NCBI GenBank assembly: GCA_965216755.1
Contig: CBDCGL010000011.1
Span: 608,001 to 672,000, forward strand
Direction of reading: 5' to 3'
DNA from: Alphaproteobacteria bacterium
GTDB lineage: Bacteria; Pseudomonadota; Alphaproteobacteria; UBA7887
DNA length: 64,000 nucleotides
Position numbers and translations under genes: made by a program. The notes under the pieces are model-generated. The model was not told where the DNA came from. It did not search any database and saw nothing but the letters and a program-made list of their open reading frames with translations. Positions 4,448 through 24,534 of this stretch are shown here, one piece after another. Positions within the stretch are counted from its first letter, which is position 1. Each line of letters begins with the position of its first letter.

Positions 4448-5794
4448 CTACAACCATTCGTCTTTGATCGTGAAACCAGTATAGGCGGCCCGCAAATAGG
4501 TCTTGCGCAATGCTGGCGCTGGAAAGCGCGGCATCGGACCGCGTAGCACGGCTGGTATCCGTTCATCGGCGCGTTGCCCATTCGCTATCAGGTCGGCAAG
4601 GGCGTCGCCACACCAACTGGCCATCGCAACCCCGCTGCCGTGATACGCGAGGGACGTCCAGGCATTCGGCATGTCGCCGATCGGGCCAACATATGGCACC
4701 AGTTTGTAAGCAAGGCAGACAAAGCCAAACCAGAAACGTTCGGTTTCGACCAGCCGCCACGCAGGAAACATCGCCTCAAACGCGCGACGCAGTTTCCGGC
4801 GCATGCGCTGTACGGCGTGCGGCGCCGCATCGATCCCGCCGCGACCGCCAAACAAAAACCGGCCATCCGGCAAAAGACGAAAGTAATGAAGCAGGTTGCG
4901 CGTATCGCGCGCCATGATGTGGGTGGTCCAGCCCTGGGTCTCGCGTTCGACATTCGTGAGTGGACGGGTGACCAAGATATTGGACATGGTTGGCAATGTG
5001 CGACCGCCATGCCACGGCGGCAAATTCTCGGACCCGTAGCCATTCGTCGCCACAACCACCCGACGCGCTCGGATCTCGCCATGTGGCAATGTCAAGGTGT
5101 GCCGGTCACCGTCGCAACGCCAGATTTGGACAGGGCTGCCGCCGTGAATGCGTGCGCCTGCGTCGGCGGCGACGTCTGCCAATCCGCGCGCATAAGTCAG
5201 CGGTTGGACGCCAAAACCAATGGGCACATGGACGCCGGCGTGGAACTCCGGCCCGGCCACCCCAATCGACGCCAGATCGGCCCGGTTGAAGGTCGGCGAG
5301 TCGACGCCGAGAACATCGCGCACGGCGGCCGCCTCCGCATGCAACGCCGGGATCCGATTGAGACGATGCGCGAGCGTCAATTCACCTACGCCACAAACAT
5401 CCGCGTCCACGCTGTTTTTGGCGAGAAAAGAACGGACATGTTCCACAGCCGCCTGTTCGGTGCGCAAGAAATGGGCCGCGTTTTCGGTGCCATAACGCCG
5501 CGCGAGGGTGTCATGAGGTAACTTCGTGGAGCCCAAACAGCAGAAACCGCCGTTGCGTCCTGACGCGCCCCAACCCGGCGCGCCGCTATCGACCACGCGT
5601 ACGTCCATACCGTGCCGCCTAACGAGTGCCAACGCTGCCGACAGCCCCGTGAATCCGGCTCCAATAATGGCAATATCGCACGAGACCGAGTTCTGAAGCG
5701 GGGGGAAATCATGGCGCGATGGCGTCGCGGTGGCCAACCAATGACTGTCGACCGCCACCGACGTGTCAAACGCGCTGTTGTGATAGAGCCGCAT
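4448..5794 (-). CDS. FAD-dependent amine oxidoreductase (DAO family, PuuB/OrdL-like)
   Basis: DIAIIGAGFTGLSAA, GASGRNGGF, VVVATNGY, YHGSGVAM motifs; ATG at 5794 preferred over the longer ORF start. Confidence 0.88.
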   Translation of the reverse strand: MRLYHNSAFDTSVAVDSHWLATATPSRHDFPPLQNSVSCDIAIIGAGFTGLSAALALVRRHGMDVRVVDSGAPGWGASGRNGGFCCLGSTKLPHDTLARRYGTENAAHFLRTEQAAVEHVRSFLAKNSVDADVCGVGELTLAHRLNRIPALHAEAAAVRDVLGVDSPTFNRADLASIGVAGPEFHAGVHVPIGFGVQPLTYARGLADVAADAGARIHGGSPVQIWRCDGDRHTLTLPHGEIRARRVVVATNGYGSENLPPWHGGRTLPTMSNILVTRPLTNVERETQGWTTHIMARDTRNLLHYFRLLPDGRFLFGGRGGIDAAPHAVQRMRRKLRRAFEAMFPAWRLVETERFWFGFVCLAYKLVPYVGPIGDMPNAWTSLAYHGSGVAMASWCGDALADLIANGQRADERIPAVLRGPMPRFPAPALRKTYLRAAYTGFTIKDEWL

Positions 5795-14024: not shown

Positions 14025-15242
14025 TCAGTCTTTTGCCTTGTTGTACGGCGAATAGTGGGCACCAACTGCGGTGATCTCGTAGTCGATTTCATCGCGCTCG
14101 CGTTCGAGATAGTCGGCGACCGCCCGGCGGAACCCTGTGTCGGCGATCCAATGCGCGCTGTAAGTCAGGCGTGGCAAATAACCACGATGGACCTTGTGTG
14201 GTCCCTGTGCGCCGGCTTCGACATGCTTCAGCCCGTGGTCAATAGCAAATTCTATAGCTTGGTAATAACACGCTTCAAAATGAAGACAATCGTGGTCCTC
14301 GATGCAGCCCCAATTTCGACCGTAAAGTGTATCTGTGCCGATAAAGTTGAGCGCGCCGGCAATATAGCGGCCACCGCGGCGGCACATCACAAGGGCAACC
14401 TTGTCAGCCATCTTGTCATGGATAATATCGAAAAAACTGCGGGTCAGGTAGGGTGATCCCCACTTGCGGCTCCCGGTATCCGTATAGAATCGGAAAAAGG
14501 CATCCCAATGTTCGGGCTTGAGATCGGAACCCGTCAAAACCTGTATGTCGATACCGGCGGCGACGGCGGTTGCGCGTTCTTTGCGGATCGTCTTGCGCCG
14601 GCGTGCCGTGAGCACGCGCAAGAAATCGTCGAAACGCTCATAGTTGTCATTATGCCAGTGGAATTGCTCACCGGTCCGCCGTAGAAAGCCGCACTCGCCC
14701 ATCAGCCGCCATTCATCTTCGGTCGGAAAAGTCACATGAAGCGACGAAACACCGAACCTCTCGCCCACTTGCACCGCCGCGTTGATCAATGCCAGCTGGT
14801 GACGTTCGCGAAGCGGGCCCGGGCGCGTCAATAGACGCGGGCCGGTGACCGGCGTAAACGGTACCGATGCCTGCAGTTTTGGATAGTAGCGGCCGCCGGC
14901 GCGTTCAAAGGCGTGTGCCCATGAATGGTCGAAGACATACTCGCCCTGAGAATGGTTTTTGAGATACAGCGGCAGGGCACCGAGCAGTTCGCCGTCGCTG
15001 TCTTCCAAGAGCACATGCTGGGGCAGCCAGCCGGTCTCGGCTGCGCAAGAACCGCTTTCTTCCAAGGCCAGAAGAAAGGCATGACTCAAAAATGGGTTGT
15101 CGCTGCCCGCACAGGCGTCCCAGGCGGCTTCCTGAACCTGGCCTAGGTCGTCAACCGTGCGCGCGGTCATCGCCTGGCGCTCATGTGACTCGACCGGCCT
15201 TGCGGGTTGCACGCGCGCGGCGTGGCGTCGCTCAGCGGTCAT
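14025..15242 (-). CDS. GNAT-fold FemAB-like protein (DUF482)
   Basis: HSQGEYVFDHSWA, YYPKL...PFTP.TG.R, LYGRNWG, LHFEACYYQ, EAGAQG.HK..RGY. Confidence 0.93.
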   Translation of the reverse strand: MTAERRHAARVQPARPVESHERQAMTARTVDDLGQVQEAAWDACAGSDNPFLSHAFLLALEESGSCAAETGWLPQHVLLEDSDGELLGALPLYLKNHSQGEYVFDHSWAHAFERAGGRYYPKLQASVPFTPVTGPRLLTRPGPLRERHQLALINAAVQVGERFGVSSLHVTFPTEDEWRLMGECGFLRRTGEQFHWHNDNYERFDDFLRVLTARRRKTIRKERATAVAAGIDIQVLTGSDLKPEHWDAFFRFYTDTGSRKWGSPYLTRSFFDIIHDKMADKVALVMCRRGGRYIAGALNFIGTDTLYGRNWGCIEDHDCLHFEACYYQAIEFAIDHGLKHVEAGAQGPHKVHRGYLPRLTYSAHWIADTGFRRAVADYLERERDEIDYEITAVGAHYSPYNKAKD

Positions 15243-15290
15243 GGGCCACCGCTGTTGCGGCTGCGCCGTGGCTTCGGGGGATACGCACAG

Positions 15291-15639
15291 CTAGAGCGGC
15301 GCCCGGCCCTGCGGGTTCGCGGCCCGGCGGGCGCCCCGCAATGGGAATCCATGTGGACGACCACATTGGTCGGCCGACTTGCCCGATGCGCTCGTGCGGT
15401 GGATCGGACGTTCGCTTGATCTCGCAGCGAGCACCAGAGCGAACGTCCGATCCGTGAACCGCACGAGATCCAAATATTCGGCTCGTGTCCTGACGAAACC
15501 GAAGTTCGTAAGGTGCCTGGCGTCAGACGTGACGAACTTCGGTTTCGGGACACGAGCATCGCGCTGCGCTGCCCTTCGCGTGGATCGCCATGCCCGGCCG
15601 CGAACAGAATTGATTCAATATTATCGGACACTGCTCTAG
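15291..15639. mobile_element. Non-autonomous palindromic element (MITE-like) with CTAGAGC...GCTCTAG ends and a nested two-hairpin core
   Basis: Terminal inverted repeat (12/16 match), internal long-range stems and two 26-bp hairpins, all read directly from the sequence; no credible CDS; mobility is inferred. Confidence 0.7.
15390..15557. repeat. Double-hairpin core: two 10+16-bp stems separated by a 13-nt AT-rich spacer
   Basis: 15391-15400/15458-15467 and 15401-15416/15438-15453; 15481-15490/15548-15557 and 15494-15509/15532-15547 are perfect reverse complements. Confidence 0.95.
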
Positions 15640-16109
15640 GCCACTGAAATTTCGAAGATCCCGTCGGCCTCGACAGCCACATTGCGGGGCAACACATTGG
15701 TTCCGACGGCGAACCGAGCATGCCGACCCGCGTCGCCGAACACATCGACCATCAGATCGGAAATTCCATTGGCGACTTCCGGCTGTCGATCAAACATATC
15801 GGGGCAATTGATGAACACGCCCAGTTTGACGCACCGACGCACGCGGTCCAAGTCGCCGTCGCAGGCGACCTTGAGTTGTGCAAGCATGTTGAGACCGCAC
15901 AGGCGCGCGGCGCTTTTTCCTTCATCAACCGTGAAATCCTTGCCGACCTTGCCAACGTAGCGTACTTCGCCATTCCAAAACGTTATTTGGCCGGCGATGA
16001 ACACAAGGTTCCCGGTGGTCACGAATGGTATGTAGTTCGCGGCCGGCGTGGCCGGCTGCGGCAGCTCAATACGACTTTCGGCGAGGCGTGCGTCGATTGT
16101 ACCTGGCAT
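15636..16109 (-). CDS. RidA/YjgF-family protein
   Basis: PAANYIP, FIAGQI, VANG.SDL...VFG..G.HAR.AVG...LP....VE; RBS GGAGGA. Confidence 0.92.
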   Translation of the reverse strand: MPGTIDARLAESRIELPQPATPAANYIPFVTTGNLVFIAGQITFWNGEVRYVGKVGKDFTVDEGKSAARLCGLNMLAQLKVACDGDLDRVRRCVKLGVFINCPDMFDRQPEVANGISDLMVDVFGDAGRHARFAVGTNVLPRNVAVEADGIFEISVA

Positions 16110-16272
16110 GGTCGATCCTCCGAATGCATCCGTGCCACCATAACGCCGTCGGGCGCCGTGGTTCCAGTGAACCGTGGCTTGCGCCATGGTGGCAGCCACA
16201 CGTTCGGCGACAGTTCACCATGATTCATTGTATACTGCTTCGGTTACGACTGACGGGGCAGCCGAACTTTAT

Positions 16273-20394: not shown

Positions 20395-21249
20395 ATGAAC
20401 GCCATGCCCCCATTCGCCCGTCTCCTGAGGCCCCTTGGATTCGTCCCTCTCTGGCTCCCGATGGCTCTCGCGCTGACGCCACAACCTGCGTCTGCTGTCG
20501 ATTTGACCACTCATCGCGCTATCTACGACATGCAGATGTTGGCGTCGCGTTCCGGTGGCGATCTCGCCGATATCTCTGGAAAGATGTTCATTGAGTGGCT
20601 GGACGCTTGCGATGGCTGGACCGTCACACAACGGGTGACGATGTTGTTTGTCCCGCGTGAGGGAGAGCCTTTTGAAAACGACTTCAGCTTTTCAAGTTGG
20701 GAGTCAAAGGACGGCAAGCAGTTCCGCTATGCGCTCAAGACAATGACGAATGGCGATATTACGGAAGAGGTCGACGGACGCGCCGATCTGAACCCGGAAG
20801 GTGGCGGAACCGCAAATTTCGTAATGCCTGATGAGCCGCCTCTGGCGTTGCCCGAGGGGACGGTTTTTCCGACCGAACATCTCTTCATGACCGTTGATCA
20901 GGCGATCGCGGGCAAGCGCATGCTCGCGCGCAATGTATTTAGCGGGACGGGTCCCGATAGCCTGAACCAAGTGACGGCCTTTATTGGGCGCGAGATTGCA
21001 CCCAATGCGCGGCCTTTGATCGGGCCGGAAGAAAGAGAACAAGCCATACTGGATTTAGGAAAACTGAAATCTTGGCAGGTCGATTTGGCGTATTTCCCGA
21101 TCGAAGGCGATGATGTCGAGCCCGAATTCGAAGTCCACTATCGCATTATGGAAAACGGCGTCGCGTCACATCTCGACCTGGACTATGGGGAATTCGCTAT
21201 TCGCGCGGTGTTGCAGCATTTGGAACTGCTGTCACCTGGCACGTGCTGA
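20395..21249 (+). CDS. eipB: Cell-envelope integrity protein EipB (DUF1849)
   Basis: Signal peptide, HRAIYD, ACDGW, SWESKDG..FRY, VFPTEH, ENGV...L.LDYG.F, C-terminal Cys. Confidence 0.88.
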   Translation: MNAMPPFARLLRPLGFVPLWLPMALALTPQPASAVDLTTHRAIYDMQMLASRSGGDLADISGKMFIEWLDACDGWTVTQRVTMLFVPREGEPFENDFSFSSWESKDGKQFRYALKTMTNGDITEEVDGRADLNPEGGGTANFVMPDEPPLALPEGTVFPTEHLFMTVDQAIAGKRMLARNVFSGTGPDSLNQVTAFIGREIAPNARPLIGPEEREQAILDLGKLKSWQVDLAYFPIEGDDVEPEFEVHYRIMENGVASHLDLDYGEFAIRAVLQHLELLSPGTC

Positions 21250-22470
21250 TTTTTGATCGGTCGCCGAGACAAACGGTTCTTCATCTTCAGGGTTGAATTC
21301 TAATAGGTCGGGTGGGTCGGCGTCATTCGTGTCGGTCAGCCGACCGGCACCGATACCAATCAATCGATAGTAGGTTCCATCGACTTCCTTCTTCAGAAGC
21401 GACGCGGCGGCTTGATGCAGAACTTCCGCGCGCTGGGTGGGGGTTGACAATGTTGTGCTGCGCGTTCGTAGCTGAAAATTGGCTGATTTGAGCTTCAGCA
21501 CCACGGATACCGTCGCCGCCTTGGCCCGTTGCAGACGCCGCGCAACATGATCGCATAGTTCGCGTGCTGCGGCGTTAAGCGCATCGAAATCGCCAATATC
21601 GTTTCGAAAAGTGGTTTCGGATGAGACGCTTTTGCGCGCGCTACGTGCGTGCACGTGGCGCCCGTCTTCGCCGGCCGCAAAGCTGGCCAATCGCCCGCCC
21701 ATGCTGCCGTAGCGCATGCTCAGTGTTTCCGCGTCCACCCCTTGTAGCTGGCCGATCGTGTTGATGCCGTCGCGCGCCAGGCGCCGCGCGAAAGAGGGGC
21801 CGACACCAGACAAGCGCGCGACTGGCAGTGGCGCAAGAAATGCCCGTGCTTCGCCACGGCCGACCACCGCAAAGCCGCGGGGTTTGTCCATGTCTGAGGC
21901 GAGCTTGGCAAGGAATTTGTTATAGCTGAGTCCGATCGATACCGTGATGCCGACATCGCTTTCGATGTTGCGCGCGAGCTCGACCAGCAATCTGGATGGG
22001 CTCTTGCCGTGATCCGCATGCGCGTCCCTCATATCCAAATAGGCTTCGTCGATCGACATGGGCTGCACGGCTGACGAAACCTGTTCCATCATGGCACGAA
22101 CTTGCCGACCAACTTCTTGATAGCGCTTCATGTCGGGCCTGACGACCGTGGCATCGGGACACGCTTCCAGCGCCTTGAACATGGGCATTGCCGAATGGAT
22201 GCCATACATGCGCGCGATGTAGCAGGCGGTGCTGACTACGCCGCGGCGGCCGCCGCCGACGATCACGGGCTTGTCGACTAGGTCCGGGTTGTCACGCTTC
22301 TCCACCGCCGCGTAGAACGCGTCACAGTCTAGATGCGCGATTGCCAGCCTATCCAGTTCCTCGTGACGCAGAAGCCGTGGACTACCGCATGCCGGGCAGC
22401 GATGGGCGTCATCAACTTTCACCGACGCGGCGCAATCGCGGCACAATCCGGAAAGCGCTGTGTTCATCAT
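21232..22470 (-). CDS. dinB: DNA polymerase IV with N-terminal Zn-ribbon
   Basis: HLDCDAFYAAVEKRD, STACYIAR, SIDEAYLD, KLASDMDKP; N-terminal CRDC...CPAC; ATGA overlap with the ROK gene. Confidence 0.95.
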   Translation of the reverse strand: MMNTALSGLCRDCAASVKVDDAHRCPACGSPRLLRHEELDRLAIAHLDCDAFYAAVEKRDNPDLVDKPVIVGGGRRGVVSTACYIARMYGIHSAMPMFKALEACPDATVVRPDMKRYQEVGRQVRAMMEQVSSAVQPMSIDEAYLDMRDAHADHGKSPSRLLVELARNIESDVGITVSIGLSYNKFLAKLASDMDKPRGFAVVGRGEARAFLAPLPVARLSGVGPSFARRLARDGINTIGQLQGVDAETLSMRYGSMGGRLASFAAGEDGRHVHARSARKSVSSETTFRNDIGDFDALNAAARELCDHVARRLQRAKAATVSVVLKLKSANFQLRTRSTTLSTPTQRAEVLHQAAASLLKKEVDGTYYRLIGIGAGRLTDTNDADPPDLLEFNPEDEEPFVSATDQKSARAR

Positions 22471-23381
22471 TTCTGAGCTGGCCACAGCCAAGCCGCGCCG
22501 CGGACACCACTCGAGTCGCCGTGGCGGTTGTGGAGCAACTTCGTGACCACTGTGTCGGAGAAAACATATGGCTGCCACCGGGGAGGTACTGAGGCATACA
22601 GGCGTTCGATATTCGACAGGCCACCGCCGAGAACGATGCTGTCGGGGTCGACAATGTTGATGACGTGGGCGAGTGCCCGTGCCAAACGATGCTCGTAGCG
22701 GCACAGTGCGTGCTCGGCTTCCGTATCGCCCTCCGTCGCGAGAGCCACAATCTCGATGGCGCTGTGGTGGCGCCCTGAAGCTGTCTCGAAATCTGCGGCC
22801 AGGCCCGGACCTGAGAGGAAGGTTTCGATACAGCCACTGCGGCCGCAATAGCAATCGGGCCCCGGGATCTCCGTGGTTGCTGACGCCATATCCGGCCAGG
22901 GCAAGGGATTGTGGCCCCATTCACCACCGATTGCGTTTGCGCCGGTTAGGGCTTGTCCGGCGACGACAATGCCGCCGCCGACTCCGGTGCCGATGATGAC
23001 GCCAAACGTGACTCCGTCACCCGCGGCGGCACCATCTATGGCTTCCGATAGCGCAAAGCAGTTGGCATCGTTGGCCAGCCGCACGGGGCGCTGCAAGGCG
23101 GCGGCCAAGTCGACGTCCAGTGGTTTTCCGATCAAACACGTTGAGTTGGCATTCTTGATGAGGCCAGTTGACGGCGAGGTCACTCCCGGTGTTGCGAAAC
23201 CAATTGTTGCGGTCGTCCCAATTTCAACTTCAATCGCCGCAACGAGTTGGCAAATAGCGCGGATCGTGGCGTCATAGTCGCCACTGGGTGTGGCCACGCG
23301 CCGGCGCAGGCGGATCGCGCCGTCATCAGCGAGCGCAATCGCCTCGATCTTTGTGCCACCGAGATCAACGCCAATTCTCAT
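22467..23381 (-). CDS. ROK-family sugar kinase (Mak/fructokinase-like)
   Basis: IGVDLGGTKIE, NDANCFALSEA, GTGVGGG, GEWGH, CYCGRSGCIE. Confidence 0.92.
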   Translation of the reverse strand: MRIGVDLGGTKIEAIALADDGAIRLRRRVATPSGDYDATIRAICQLVAAIEVEIGTTATIGFATPGVTSPSTGLIKNANSTCLIGKPLDVDLAAALQRPVRLANDANCFALSEAIDGAAAGDGVTFGVIIGTGVGGGIVVAGQALTGANAIGGEWGHNPLPWPDMASATTEIPGPDCYCGRSGCIETFLSGPGLAADFETASGRHHSAIEIVALATEGDTEAEHALCRYEHRLARALAHVINIVDPDSIVLGGGLSNIERLYASVPPRWQPYVFSDTVVTKLLHNRHGDSSGVRGAAWLWPAQK

Positions 23382-23428
23382 TTCTGAATCACGCTCATAG
23401 CACAGCAAGTCGCGACGTCACCGCCATA

Positions 23429-23444
23429 TGTTCACATTTTGTAC
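23429..23444. promoter_or_regulatory. Candidate alphaproteobacterial LexA (SOS) box upstream of ROK-dinB
   Basis: TGTTC-ACATTT-TGTAC, i.e. GTTC-N7-GTAC, one mismatch from GTTC-N7-GTTC; about 48 bp before the operon start. Confidence 0.55.
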
Positions 23445-23474
23445 CGGATCGGTAGAAATGTCATGTGCCAAATA

Positions 23475-23564
23475 TTTCGGTGACAGTTTACTAAATATAC
23501 TATATATAGATCAGATAAGATACAATACCCTGTATATTGTGTATTTAGTAAACTGTCACCGAAA
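23475..23564. repeat. AT-rich 35-bp inverted repeat (REP/MITE-like)
   Basis: TTTCGGTGACAGTTTACTAAATA perfect 23-bp arm, 32/35 over the full arm; followed by extra CACCGAAAC copies. Confidence 0.9.
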
Positions 23565-23595
23565 CCACCGAAACACAAGCTCACCGAAACGCGAG

Positions 23596-24534
23596 CTAGG
23601 CGGTAACCACCCGATTGCGGCCGGCATGTTTGGCGTCGTACAGGGCCTTGTCGGCACGGGTCAACGCGTCTTCGGGCTTGGCATCGTCGCGTCTGAGTTC
23701 GGTAACGCCAAAACTCGCGGTGATCGCAATCGACTCACCGCCACTTGGGATTGGCGCCTGCGCCAATGCGGCACGGATCCGCTCGGCCACATCTGCCGCC
23801 GCTGCCGCCGCCGTTTCGGGTAACAAAATCGCAAATTCTTCGCCGCCGATCCGAGCGGGAACATCGACCGTGCGCAGCTGCGCCCCACAGATTTGTGCCA
23901 GCGCGCGCAACACATCATCTCCGGCCGCGTGACCAAATTGATCGTTCACGTTCTTGAAATGGTCCAAATCGAGCGATATCGCCGATAGCTGGTGAATGTA
24001 GCGACGACTGCGGTCGAACTCGTAACTGAGTTTGTCAAAAAACGCGCGCCGATTGGCGATACCGGTTAACGGATCGGTCATCGATAATTCCAAAAGGCTT
24101 TGCTCAAGCTTTTTCTGTTCCGTTATGTCGCGTTCGATGGCGGCATAGTGCGTCACTTTGCCGGCACCATCCTGCAATGGAATCAGGTTGAGTTCGATCC
24201 AGTATTGTGTGCCGGTCTTACTGTAATTCAACAGTGTCGCGCGTATCGGCTCGTGTCGCATCAGCGCTTCTCGTATGCCGCGTTTGACCTCCGGGTCGGT
24301 GTCTTCGCCTTGAAGCATGCTCGGCGAATTGCCAATGACTTCGTCGGGCGTGTAGCCGGTCAGGGCGGTAAAGGCAGGATTGACGTAGATGATCCTAGGG
24401 CCCGCCCGCCCAGTATCGCTCACCTGGGTAATGATGATGATATCGTTCGCGTTCTCGATGATGCTTTGAAAGAATTTGCGCGCGGTCATGTTGGTGAAGA
24501 GCCGATCATTCAGTGCGCCGGCATCCGTAGACAA
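23596..24534 (-). CDS. PAS-GGDEF diguanylate cyclase
   Basis: PAS/PAC (IIYVNPAF..LTGY...E..G, NYSK.G..YW), DPLTG..NRR, DLDHFK.VND.FGH..GD, RTVD I-site, GGEEF; start may be ATG 24489. Confidence 0.95.
   Translation of the reverse strand: MSTDAGALNDRLFTNMTARKFFQSIIENANDIIIITQVSDTGRAGPRIIYVNPAFTALTGYTPDEVIGNSPSMLQGEDTDPEVKRGIREALMRHEPIRATLLNYSKTGTQYWIELNLIPLQDGAGKVTHYAAIERDITEQKKLEQSLLELSMTDPLTGIANRRAFFDKLSYEFDRSRRYIHQLSAISLDLDHFKNVNDQFGHAAGDDVLRALAQICGAQLRTVDVPARIGGEEFAILLPETAAAAAADVAERIRAALAQAPIPSGGESIAITASFGVTELRRDDAKPEDALTRADKALYDAKHAGRNRVVTA

What the first reader, a model, noticed from the sequence alone, without database searches (positions are those of the whole stretch)
15291..15639. 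349-bp nested palindromic element: rod-like outer arms closing a symmetric double hairpin
Seen: terminal IR CTAGAGCGGCGCCCGG / TCGGACACTGCTCTAG (12/16); nested stems GTTCGCGGCC (15315-24) with 15596-605 (perfect), ATCCATGTGGA (15347-57) with TTCGCGTGGAT (15575-85, three G-U on the + strand), and GATGC (15385-89) with GCATC (15556-60), which closes a junction carrying two long hairpins. The right CTAG contains the ridA stop codon. It lies inside the ridA-to-DUF482 unit, where I recall a glycerophosphodiesterase gene in many alphaproteobacteria. Inference: a MITE nested within a MITE, or a large structured RNA or ssDNA element. No transposase is present in the window.
Basis: partly seen in the sequence, partly recalled or inferred. 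Interest (0 to 1): 0.75.

Follow-up and report, generated by a model that had tools for sequence, protein, structure and literature searches.

The report
Orphan palindromic insertion between ridA and DUF482
A 349-base non-coding stretch that folds into a rod capped by two long hairpins sits between two genes that abut in related bacteria; it looks like an ordinary, uncatalogued hairpin-type insertion rather than a new kind of system.

Summary
Window 15291-15639 is a nested imperfect palindrome, and it folds more strongly than any other 350-nt stretch of the 64 kb.

It lies on the transcribed strand between an intact ridA-like gene and an intact DUF482/FemAB_like gene. In the nearest relatives these two genes overlap or lie 0-105 bp apart. 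The ~350 extra bases are therefore lineage-specific. They are bounded by a 7-bp perfect inverted repeat that contains CTAG, a rare tetranucleotide here.

"MITE inside a MITE" does not describe it well. The whole element has one two-fold symmetry: arm, hairpin H1, 13-nt centre, hairpin H2 (mirror of H1), arm. H1 and H2 differ at 7 of 26 stem pairs. Every difference is changed on both sides.

No second copy or relative turned up in:
- the window;
- 80 related loci (1.35 Mb);
- the plasmid and phage collections;
- Rfam;
- protein searches with translations of the element.

The source genome itself could not be scanned.

Best reading: a non-autonomous palindromic insertion (MITE/REPIN-like), transcribed inside the ridA-DUF482 mRNA. 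Mobility and function are inferred, not shown. Interest is low to moderate.

The parts
15291..15639 (.). Whole palindromic element, 349 bp, 64% GC spacer context, non-coding
   Evidence: Folds at -201.0 kcal/mol on the - strand and -188.4 on the + strand as RNA. Folds at -114.9 kcal/mol as DNA, z -9.8. Its left half matches the reverse complement of its right half at 114 of 146 aligned bases, score 44 against a shuffle maximum of 19 in 300.
15291..15305 (.). Left terminal inverted repeat. It begins with CTAG (15291-15294).
   Evidence: I9: 15 nt, 80% complementary to 15625-15639. The outer 7 bp are perfect.
15625..15639 (.). Right terminal inverted repeat. It ends with CTAG (15636-15639), which holds the ridA stop codon TAG on the - strand.
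   Evidence: I9.
15315..15324 (.). Left strand of the perfect 10-bp rod stem. Its partner is 15596-15605.
   Evidence: (I6).
15596..15605 (.). Right strand of the perfect 10-bp rod stem
   Evidence: (I6).
15606..15624 (.). AT-rich stretch (16% GC) in the right arm with no counterpart in the left arm. It stays unpaired in the folds.
   Evidence: Alignment gap. Unpaired. GC content.
15384..15389 (.). Left strand of the 6-bp stem that closes the junction carrying both hairpins. Its partner is 15556-15561.
   Evidence: - strand fold.
15391..15467 (.). Hairpin H1, 77 nt: 10-bp foot, 4-nt bulge at 15454-15457, perfect 16-bp stem (15401-15416 with 15438-15453), apical region
   Evidence: I3, I13.: -55.9 kcal/mol, z -8.9.
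15468..15480 (.). 13-nt spacer between the hairpins. It holds the dyad centre (AATATT, 15473-15478).
   Evidence: I17.
15481..15557 (.). Hairpin H2, 77 nt, a mirror-image relative of H1: 10-bp foot, 3-nt bulge at 15491-15493, perfect 16-bp stem (15494-15509 with 15532-15547)
   Evidence: I2, I10.: -49.2 kcal/mol, z -9.4..
15636..16199 (-). ridA-like gene (YjgF_endoribonc), intact. The likely true start is the ATG at 16109, which has a GGAGGA upstream.
   Evidence: PF14588, 1.9e-27. Relatives align to residue 184-185 of 187. Start codon read.
14025..15242 (-). DUF482 / FemAB_like gene, intact. The start is either the ATG at 15242 or, matching relatives better, the ATG at 15170.
   Evidence: PF04339, 1.2e-159, profile positions 3-368 of 369. 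Relatives align from residue ~24.
15243..15290 (-). Spacer outside the element. This is what would remain between ridA and DUF482 without the insertion: 48 nt, or 120 nt if the start is 15170.
   Evidence: Relatives have spacers of 0-105 nt.

Best explanation
The element is a lineage-specific, non-coding, non-autonomous palindromic insertion of the MITE/REPIN kind. It landed at a CTAG that overlaps the ridA stop codon, inside what was a tightly coupled ridA-DUF482 operon.

Its build is an inverted duplication of one unit: an arm of about 100 nt plus a 77-nt hairpin. The ends therefore pair into a rod, and the middle forms two side-by-side hairpins.

Shown:
- the anatomy;
- the strength of the fold;
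- the lack of coding signal;
- the absence of the element from the same junction in relatives;
- the intact state of both neighbouring genes.

Inferred:
- It arrived by transposition in trans. The mechanism would be either duplication of TA within CTAG or a 4-bp CTAG duplication. Both would leave the ridA stop intact.
- It is now transcribed on the - strand as part of the ridA-DUF482 mRNA. There it folds in the order H2, H1, then rod closure.
- Translation of the two genes is uncoupled, since they overlap as GTGA in the closest relative.
- The 26-bp helices are candidate substrates for double-strand-specific RNase, or barriers to 3' exonucleases.
- Tight folding of the untranslated gap of 393-465 nt plausibly keeps Rho off, so DUF482 is still expressed.
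For: Insertion:
- The DUF482 tree puts the window next to L078 (SH-aLRT 98), in the half of the tree where 18 of 28 rows have ridA directly adjacent.
- In L078 the ridA stop overlaps the DUF482 GTG start.
- Among the 20 'adjacent' loci, 15 have spacers of 0-105 bp, 2 have 234 and 264 bp, and 3 abut or overlap. The window has 393-465 bp.
- Removing the element would leave 48-120 bp.

Ends:
- The terminal repeat is 7 bp perfect and 12 of 16 overall.
- Complementarity stops exactly at the CTAGs.
- CTAG occurs 41 times in 64 kb, against 236 expected from base composition.

Non-coding:
- Translations of all three frame classes found nothing. The 168-aa frame was run against 1.84 billion representatives (0 hits) and the word-indexed set. 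The other two frames were run.
- It is not a GDPD relic.

Structure.

Neighbours intact.

Precedent at the same junction:
- In L025 (Aerophototrophica crusticola) the ridA-DUF482 spacer holds an unrelated ~95-nt palindromic hairpin (z -4.9).
- That hairpin has a second copy, 82% identical over 95 nt, 3.6 kb away.

Literature:
- MITEs give stable stem-loop transcripts, and Correia elements in mRNAs are cut by RNase III (PMC10969869, passages read; PMC2649163, abstract in search listing).
- An IS5-like MITE duplicates CTAG or YTAA (PMC3189936, passages).
- IS630/Tc1 elements duplicate TA (PMC2170065, abstract and passages).
Against: No second copy and no relative was found anywhere I could look:
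- 0 further copies in the 64-kb window;
- nothing with E below 0.01 in 80 related loci, 1.35 Mb;
- with the hairpin covariance model, only a chance match inside a coding repeat;
- no match in the plasmid or phage collections;
- no Rfam family.

Other points against:
- By contrast, the L025 repeat showed a second copy within 21 kb.
- No transposase family was found in 54 ORFs of the window.
- CTAG is itself a palindrome. Its presence at both ends may simply be part of the inverted repeat and not a target duplication.
- The closest relative is only 62% identical in DUF482. 'Empty site' is therefore shown at the level of gene order, not of sequence.
- Short similarities between the arms and nearby flanks hint at a local origin. 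15300-15333 resembles 15191-15227 (1 of 200 shuffles as high), and a 10-mer of the rod recurs at 16035.
- No RNA data exist, so all functional steps are inference.
Confidence: 0.5

Rival explanations
1. The palindrome was made locally and never moved. Two rounds of inverted duplication or replication template switching in the ancestral ridA-DUF482 spacer produced first the 77-nt hairpin and then the mirrored 'arm plus hairpin'. Template switching within each quasi-palindrome has since kept the hairpin arms perfect.
For: - It is single-copy in everything searched.
- The left arm 15300-15333 resembles the adjacent flank 15191-15227, with 30 of 34 bases matched and 1 of 200 shuffles as high. A 15-mer with one free position occurs only at these two places in 64 kb.
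- The rod 10-mer has its only other copy in the window at 16035, inside ridA.
- Template switching is reported to make imperfect inverted repeats perfect and to homogenise their arms (PMC7202029 and PMC8604942, abstracts in search listing). This would explain 7 both-sided and 0 one-sided differences without any selection.
Against: - The flank similarities are short, GC-rich and only marginally above shuffles. They were found after looking at many possible matches.
- Complementarity ends sharply at a rare tetranucleotide that coincides with the stop codon. That looks more like a target site than the edge of a local duplication.
- Two rounds of inverted duplication plus 22% divergence between the halves is a longer history than one insertion.
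Confidence: 0.2
2. Whatever its origin, the element is now a selected cis-acting RNA of the ridA-DUF482 transcript. It would act as an intercistronic processing and stability module whose two hairpins are kept intact because they set the ratio of the two gene products.
For: - H1 and H2 are positional relatives. They share 17 unchanged stem pairs and differ at 7 of 26 pairs, always on both sides. 49 of 50 cells are paired.
- The outer rod, by contrast, has decayed to 56 of 71 identical.
- The mRNA-sense (- strand) fold is 12.6 kcal/mol better than the + strand fold.
- Neither a terminator-like nor a promoter-like site lies in the element, so read-through to DUF482 is plausible.
- Transcribed palindromic repeats are reported to alter mRNA cleavage or protection (PMC2649163 abstract; PMC10969869 passages; PMC3733652 section 14).
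Against: - The comparison rests on two hairpins from one locus. Both were picked because they pair, so their pairing follows from how they were chosen.
- Arm homogenisation by template switching gives the same pattern.
- No orthologous element exists in 80 related loci, so it is not a conserved regulator.
Confidence: 0.2
3. It is a single-strand DNA transposition substrate of the REP/REPIN type. A tyrosine (RAYT or IS200/IS605-like) transposase encoded elsewhere would recognise the hairpins as folded ssDNA and cut next to a fixed tetranucleotide.
For: - The architecture matches a head-to-head dimer of palindromic units that can fold either separately or as one large stem-loop. The partners also have different stems ('heterodimer'), as described for REP dimers (PMC3733652, section 14; REPIN definition from PMC3337134, abstract in search listing).
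- The DNA fold is as extreme as the RNA fold (z -9.8).
- The same tetranucleotide lies at both ends.
Against: - The units are 77 nt with 26 paired positions. Described REPs are 20-40 bp with 8-9 bp stems (PMC3733652, abstract and section 6).
- No GTAG occurs on either strand of the element. CGTC occurs only inside stems or loops, not as an unpaired end tag.
- No Y1-type transposase family was found among the 54 ORFs of the window.
- There is no second copy in 64 kb, whereas REPs are high-copy.
Confidence: 0.08

Closest known systems
Bacterial MITEs transcribed within operons, such as Neisseria Correia elements and the IS5-like MITEPsy1 of Pseudomonas syringae
   Same: - Small and non-coding, with terminal inverted repeats.
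- Intergenic, downstream of a stop codon.
- The transcript folds into a very stable stem-loop.
- MITEPsy1 inserts at CTAG or YTAA (PMC3189936, passages).
- Correia elements in mRNAs bind or are cut by RNase III (PMC2649163 abstract; PMC10969869 passages).
   Different: - The window element is GC-rich (64% for the spacer), whereas MITEs are described as typically AT-rich (PMC10969869).
- Its interior is not a simple core but two 77-nt mirror-image hairpins.
- No second copy, no parent IS and no unambiguous target duplication were found.
REP dimers, BIMEs and REPINs
   Same: - Two palindromic units in inverted orientation, separated by a short spacer.
- They can fold separately or as one long hairpin.
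- The partners have different stems (PMC3733652, section 14).
- They prefer sites between co-directional genes, downstream of coding regions (PMC3733652, abstract).
   Different: - The scale differs: 349 bp and 26-bp stems here, against 20-40 bp units with 8-9 bp stems.
- There is no GTAG or CGTC end tag.
- No RAYT gene lies in the window.
- It is not repeated in 64 kb.
The ~95-nt palindromic repeat in the ridA-DUF482 spacer of Aerophototrophica crusticola (locus L025)
   Same: - It occupies the same junction, between the same two genes, on the same strand.
- It is a strong hairpin (z -4.9).
   Different: - Its sequence is unrelated (no significant match to the window).
- It is a single hairpin with C5GC/GCG5 feet.
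- It is demonstrably repeated, with a second copy 82% identical within 21 kb.
Intercistronic hairpins that stabilise the upstream part of a polycistronic mRNA (the malE-malF REP of E. coli and the puf operon of Rhodobacter). These examples are recalled and come from no call.
   Same: A large stem-loop between two co-transcribed genes. This is the working model for what the element does to the transcript.
   Different: Those are short, conserved or high-copy elements with measured effects. No RNA data exist here.

Membership tests
MITE | Terminal inverted repeats | tested here: met
   15291-15305 pairs with 15625-15639, 12 of 15 complementary, the outer 7 bp perfect.
MITE | Flanking direct repeat (target-site duplication) | tested here: inconclusive
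   CTAG lies at both ends. Because CTAG is its own reverse complement, it can be read three ways: as a 4-bp duplication, as TA duplicated within CTAG, or simply as part of the inverted repeat.
MITE | Small and without coding capacity | tested here: met
   The element is 349 bp. Translations of all three frame classes found no relative. No GDPD relic.
MITE | Several copies in the genome or in relatives | tested here: inconclusive
   No further copy in the 64-kb window, in 80 related loci, or in the plasmid and phage collections. The rest of the source genome could not be searched.
MITE | Absent from the same site in relatives | tested here: met
   All 20 loci with adjacent ridA-DUF482 lack it. 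Spacers are 0-105 bp in 15, 234 and 264 bp in 2, and the genes abut or overlap in 3. The relatives are distant: at most 62% identity in DUF482.
MITE | A parent insertion sequence with matching ends and a transposase acting in trans | not testable with these tools
   No IS reference library was available. No transposase family was found in 54 window ORFs. No plasmid or phage record matched the element.
REP / BIME / REPIN | Units of 20-40 bp with short stems (8-9 bp in the CGTC families) | tested here: not met
   The units are 77 nt with 26 paired positions. Definition taken from PMC3733652, abstract and section 6.
REP / BIME / REPIN | Unpaired GTAG or CGTC tag at one end of the palindrome | tested here: not met
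   No GTAG or CTAC occurs in 15281-15650. CGTC and GACG occur only inside stems, the bulge boundary or loops.
REP / BIME / REPIN | Inverted pair of units able to fold into one larger hairpin | tested here: met
   H2 mirrors H1. The halves match at 114 of 146 aligned bases. The rod closes around both hairpins.
REP / BIME / REPIN | High copy number and an associated RAYT gene | tested here: inconclusive
   Neither is present in the window. The rest of the genome was not available.
Any Rfam RNA family | Match at or above the family's gathering score | tested here: not met
   0 matches in the whole window at gathering thresholds. The best sub-threshold match was a generic microRNA-precursor hairpin at 29.3 bits, against a cut-off of 90.
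Intrinsic terminator | GC-rich hairpin followed by a T run | tested here: not met
   No terminator-like site lies inside 15291-15639 on either strand.
Decayed GDPD gene (the gene found at this position in other alphaproteobacteria) | Residual protein similarity on the coding strand | tested here: not met
   tblastn of 10 intervening ORFs against 15101-15700 gave a best E of 0.008, on the wrong strand, with no consistent hits.

The most novel reading that the evidence does not exclude
The element would be the first seen member of an undescribed class of large, GC-rich, REPIN-like replicators. Each would be about 350 bp: a rod closing two mirror-image 77-nt hairpins, targeting CTAG. The hairpin itself would be the recognised moiety, and this would explain why the two copies differ at 7 stem pairs yet carry no uncompensated change. 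If so, the source lineage should hold further copies and a dedicated enzyme, either a single-strand DNA transposase or an RNA-level partner.
Probability: 0.12. Interest if true: 0.5.

Novelty: new member of a known kind. Interest (0 to 1): 0.25.

Why it matters
The practical value is for annotation and for reading this operon. An insertion has pulled apart two genes that are translationally coupled in the closest relative, and the downstream gene now sits behind about 400 nt of very stable RNA structure.

Two points of wider, modest interest follow. First, the same ridA-DUF482 junction has taken up unrelated palindromic repeats in at least two lineages. Second, the two mirror-image hairpins show only both-sided differences. 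If more copies can be found, this small case could help separate selection on structure from arm homogenisation by template switching.

Nothing here bears on a long-standing open question.

Tried and rejected
Known RNA family: rejected.
- Rfam at gathering thresholds gave 0 hits in 64 kb.
- At E up to 10 it gave only generic hairpin matches far below cut-off.

GDPD pseudogene: rejected.

Integron attC, dif-like site, retron, group II intron remnant:
- No supporting gene lies nearby, and Rfam gave no hit.
- The attC core motif order, as I recall it, is the reverse of the GTT...AAC order seen here. This motif is recalled and was not tested by a tool.

Terminator or promoter inside the element: none found by consensus scan.

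Search for copies through mis-called ORFs:
- I ran the 168-aa - strand frame, the 86-aa + frame and the 121-aa + frame.
- All returned 0 hits.
- This is only weak evidence of rarity, because it needs a gene caller to have called an ORF across a copy.

Sequence and structure searches of 80 related loci:
- blastn and nhmmer found nothing with E below 0.01.
- The covariance model R1, built from H1 and H2, returned 10 matches at E up to 10.
- Four of these were the model's own sources.
- One was at L007 4815-4875 (32 bits) and lies inside a repetitive coding region.
- The other five had E of 0.29 or more.

Plasmid and phage collections: no match.

Nested-MITE reading: rejected in favour of one mirror-symmetric element.

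Apical loops of H1 and H2: their similarity is not above chance (581 of 2000 shuffles as high).

The second long spacer among relatives (L069, 264 bp) is not notably structured (z -1.67).

The careful maximum-likelihood tree did not finish. The tree cited is the quick one, with SH-aLRT support only.

Full report
**1. What is there**

Window 15291-15639 lies between two genes on the - strand. One is a ridA-like gene (PF14588, 1.9e-27), whose stop TAG lies inside the CTAG at 15636-15639. The other is a DUF482/FemAB_like gene (PF04339, 1.2e-159) that starts at 15242 or, matching relatives better, at 15170. The spacer is therefore 393-465 nt long, and its transcribed sense is the - strand.

- A terminal inverted repeat, 12 of 16, with 7 perfect outer base pairs that include CTAG.
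- A perfect 10-bp stem, 15315-15324 with 15596-15605.
- An 11-pair stem with three G-U pairs that forms only on the + strand.
- A 6-bp stem, 15384-15389 with 15556-15561, that closes a junction carrying two 77-nt hairpins: H1 at 15391-15467 and H2 at 15481-15557.

**2. Is it more than chance?**

Yes.
- The spacer folds at -220.8 kcal/mol on the - strand (z -9.4) and -209 kcal/mol on the + strand (z -7.8), with 0 of 100 shuffles as good in each case.
- H1 and H2 alone have z -8.9 and -9.4.
- The element folded as DNA has z -9.8.
- In a GC-corrected sliding fold of the whole 64 kb, the three most extreme of 1273 windows all overlap the element.
- Of 13 inverted-repeat pairs with arms of 14 nt or more within 120 nt in the window, two are H1 and H2. 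Only one other is a comparable hairpin, at 23475-23564.

**3. Anatomy: one mirror-symmetric element, not a nest of two**

- Each hairpin has a 10-bp foot beginning CTCGTG, a 3-4 nt one-sided bulge, a perfect 16-bp stem and an apical region of about 21 nt.
- The bulge is on the 3' arm of H1 and on the 5' arm of H2 (+ strand). H2 is therefore H1 turned round.
- H1(+) aligns with H2(-). The 5' arms align better than 1991 of 2000 shuffles. The apical loops do not align above chance, with 581 of 2000 shuffles as high.
- The outer arms are also mirror images: 56 of 71 aligned bases identical, with 0 of 500 shuffles as high.
- The whole left half matches the reverse complement of the right half at 114 of 146 aligned bases.
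- The dyad centre is the AATATT at 15473-15478, within a 13-nt spacer.
- The right arm carries an extra AT-rich stretch (15606-15624, 16% GC) that has no partner.
- No direct repeats flank the inner core.
- I therefore read the element as an inverted duplication of one 'arm plus hairpin' unit.

**4. The two hairpins differ only by both-sided changes**

On the H1/H2 alignment, 26 stem pairs were counted. 17 are the same in both hairpins, 7 differ on both sides, none differs on one side only, and 49 of 50 cells are paired.

Both hairpins were chosen because they pair, so pairing alone says nothing. The point is that the divergence between the two is entirely compensated, while the outer rod has decayed.

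Two explanations fit, and I cannot separate them here. One is selection on the hairpin, as RNA or as folded DNA. The other is template switching at quasi-palindromes, which is reported to make imperfect inverted repeats perfect and to homogenise their arms (PMC7202029 and PMC8604942, abstracts seen in the search listing).

**5. Context in relatives**

One scan of the species-representative genomes with the DUF482 protein gave 564 relatives, of which 80 loci were kept. None is close: identity is 50-62%.

| Class | Loci (of 80) |
|---|---|
| Gene between ridA and DUF482 | 47 |
| ridA directly adjacent | 20 |
| No ridA nearby | 9 |
| ridA further away | 3 |
| Locus cut | 1 |

- The intervening gene is GDPD in 3 of 3 tested.
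- The window spacer holds no trace of GDPD.
- In a quick tree (the careful search did not finish), the window's DUF482 is sister to L078 (SH-aLRT 98), in the half of the tree where 18 of 28 rows are 'adjacent'.
- In L078 the ridA stop overlaps the DUF482 GTG start.
- In the 20 adjacent loci, the spacer is 0-105 bp in 15, is 234 and 264 bp in 2, and the genes abut or overlap in 3.
- Without the element the window would have 48-120 bp. The extra ~350 bp are thus specific to this lineage. Both neighbours are intact.

**6. Is it repeated?**

I found no second copy.
- Window: only self matches, and no dispersed repeat family of any kind.
- 80 related loci, 1.35 Mb: nothing with E below 0.01 by blastn or nhmmer.
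- With a covariance model of the hairpin: one 32-bit match that lies in a coding repeat.
- Plasmids and phages: no match.
- Translations of the element in all three frame classes, meant to catch copies mis-called as genes: 0 hits. This includes an exhaustive search of 1.84 billion representatives.
- No transposase family was found in the 54 window ORFs scanned.

**7. A precedent at the same junction**

In Aerophototrophica crusticola (L025) the ridA-DUF482 spacer is 201-234 bp. It holds an unrelated ~95-nt palindromic hairpin (z -4.9). That hairpin has a second copy, 82% identical over 95 nt, 3.6 kb away in the opposite orientation. This junction therefore accepts palindromic repeats, and such repeats are lineage-specific in sequence.

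**8. Ends and target**

- Complementarity stops exactly at the two CTAGs.
- CTAG is rare here: 41 occurrences, against 236 expected from base composition and 61 from a Markov estimate.
- Because CTAG is its own reverse complement, it cannot be told whether it is a 4-bp duplication, a TA duplication within CTAG, or part of the repeat. A 4-bp duplication is reported for an IS5-like MITE that inserts at CTAG or YTAA (PMC3189936, passages). IS630/Tc1 elements duplicate TA (PMC2170065, abstract and passages). A preference of IS630 itself for CTAG is my recollection and comes from no call.
- Under any of these readings the ridA stop codon is preserved.

**9. How it most likely works**

Shown: the anatomy, the fold, the lack of coding signal, the absence from relatives, and the intact neighbours.

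Inferred:
- A non-autonomous palindromic element inserted at the CTAG at the end of ridA.
- It is transcribed within the ridA-DUF482 mRNA and folds as H2, then H1, then the rod.
- It abolishes the translational coupling seen in L078.
- Its 26-bp helices may be cut by RNase III or may block 3' exonucleases, as reported for Correia elements and discussed for REP dimers (PMC2649163 abstract; PMC10969869 passages; PMC3733652 section 14).
- Its tight folding may keep the long untranslated gap from triggering Rho-dependent polarity.
- No terminator-like or promoter-like site lies in it.

**10. Rivals**

- A locally made palindrome. It is supported weakly by short similarities between the arms and nearby flanks and by the single-copy state.
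- A selected cis-acting RNA. It is supported by the compensated differences and by a fold 12.6 kcal/mol better on the mRNA strand. It is weakened by the lack of any orthologue.
- A REP/RAYT-type single-strand DNA substrate. The architecture fits, but the size, the end tags and the copy number do not (PMC3733652).

**11. Verdict**

The element is best filed as an uncatalogued member of the bacterial palindromic-insertion kind (MITE/REPIN-like). It has an unusual double-hairpin core and is single-copy as far as could be seen. Interest is low to moderate.

Noticed in passing
window 23475-23564 (context 23382-23596): A second long hairpin, AT-rich, with 35-nt arms 91% complementary. Just to its right, CACCGAAAC occurs twice, after a third CACCGAAA that closes the hairpin's right arm. 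It lies between the 3' end of a PAS-GGDEF gene and the start of a gene whose product begins MRIGVDLGGTK, which by eye looks like a ROK-type kinase. It is unrelated in sequence to the element studied.
   Followed up: partly
L025 9775-9874 and 6105-6198: Aerophototrophica crusticola carries a ~95-nt palindromic repeat with C5GC/GCG5 feet in its ridA-DUF482 spacer. A second copy (82% identical) lies 3.6 kb away in the opposite orientation, and an 18-nt fragment at 5383-5400.
   Followed up: partly
L078 11215-11289; L006 3762-3841; L045 12308-12409: Other long perfect hairpins in related loci. One has 27-bp arms and lies just downstream of DUF482 in the window's closest relative. Azospirillum loci carry hairpins with 25-37-bp arms built on a CCTCCCCCGC...GCGGGGGAGG motif. 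These are probably local repeat families.
   Followed up: no
window 15191-15227 and 16035-16052: Short similarities between the element's arms and its flanks. 15300-15333 resembles 15191-15227 (30 of 34 bases, 1 of 200 shuffles as high). The rod 10-mer has its only other window copy at 16035, inside ridA. This may be chance, a relic third arm, or a sign of local origin.
   Followed up: partly
window, whole: CTAG is strongly under-represented: 41 occurrences, against 236 expected from base composition. The window has no dispersed repeat family, no tRNA or other Rfam match, and no transposase family among the ORFs scanned. It looks like core chromosome (topA, dprA, plsY, pyrB/pyrC-like, ruvX, gatA-like amidase, RNase R).
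   Followed up: partly
L078 10000-10010: In the closest relative the ridA stop and the DUF482 start overlap (GTGA). This implies translational coupling, which the window has lost.
   Followed up: yes
L011: A contig labelled as an uncultured Mycobacteriaceae genome bin carries a ridA-DUF482 pair that nests among alphaproteobacterial sequences in the DUF482 tree. This is likely a binning or labelling error.
   Followed up: no
window 21232-22920: The 562-aa ORF holding the impB/mucB/samB (DinB-like) polymerase domains has its Pfam match starting only at residue 197. The called start is therefore probably too far upstream, and it overlaps the neighbouring kinase-like gene.
   Followed up: no
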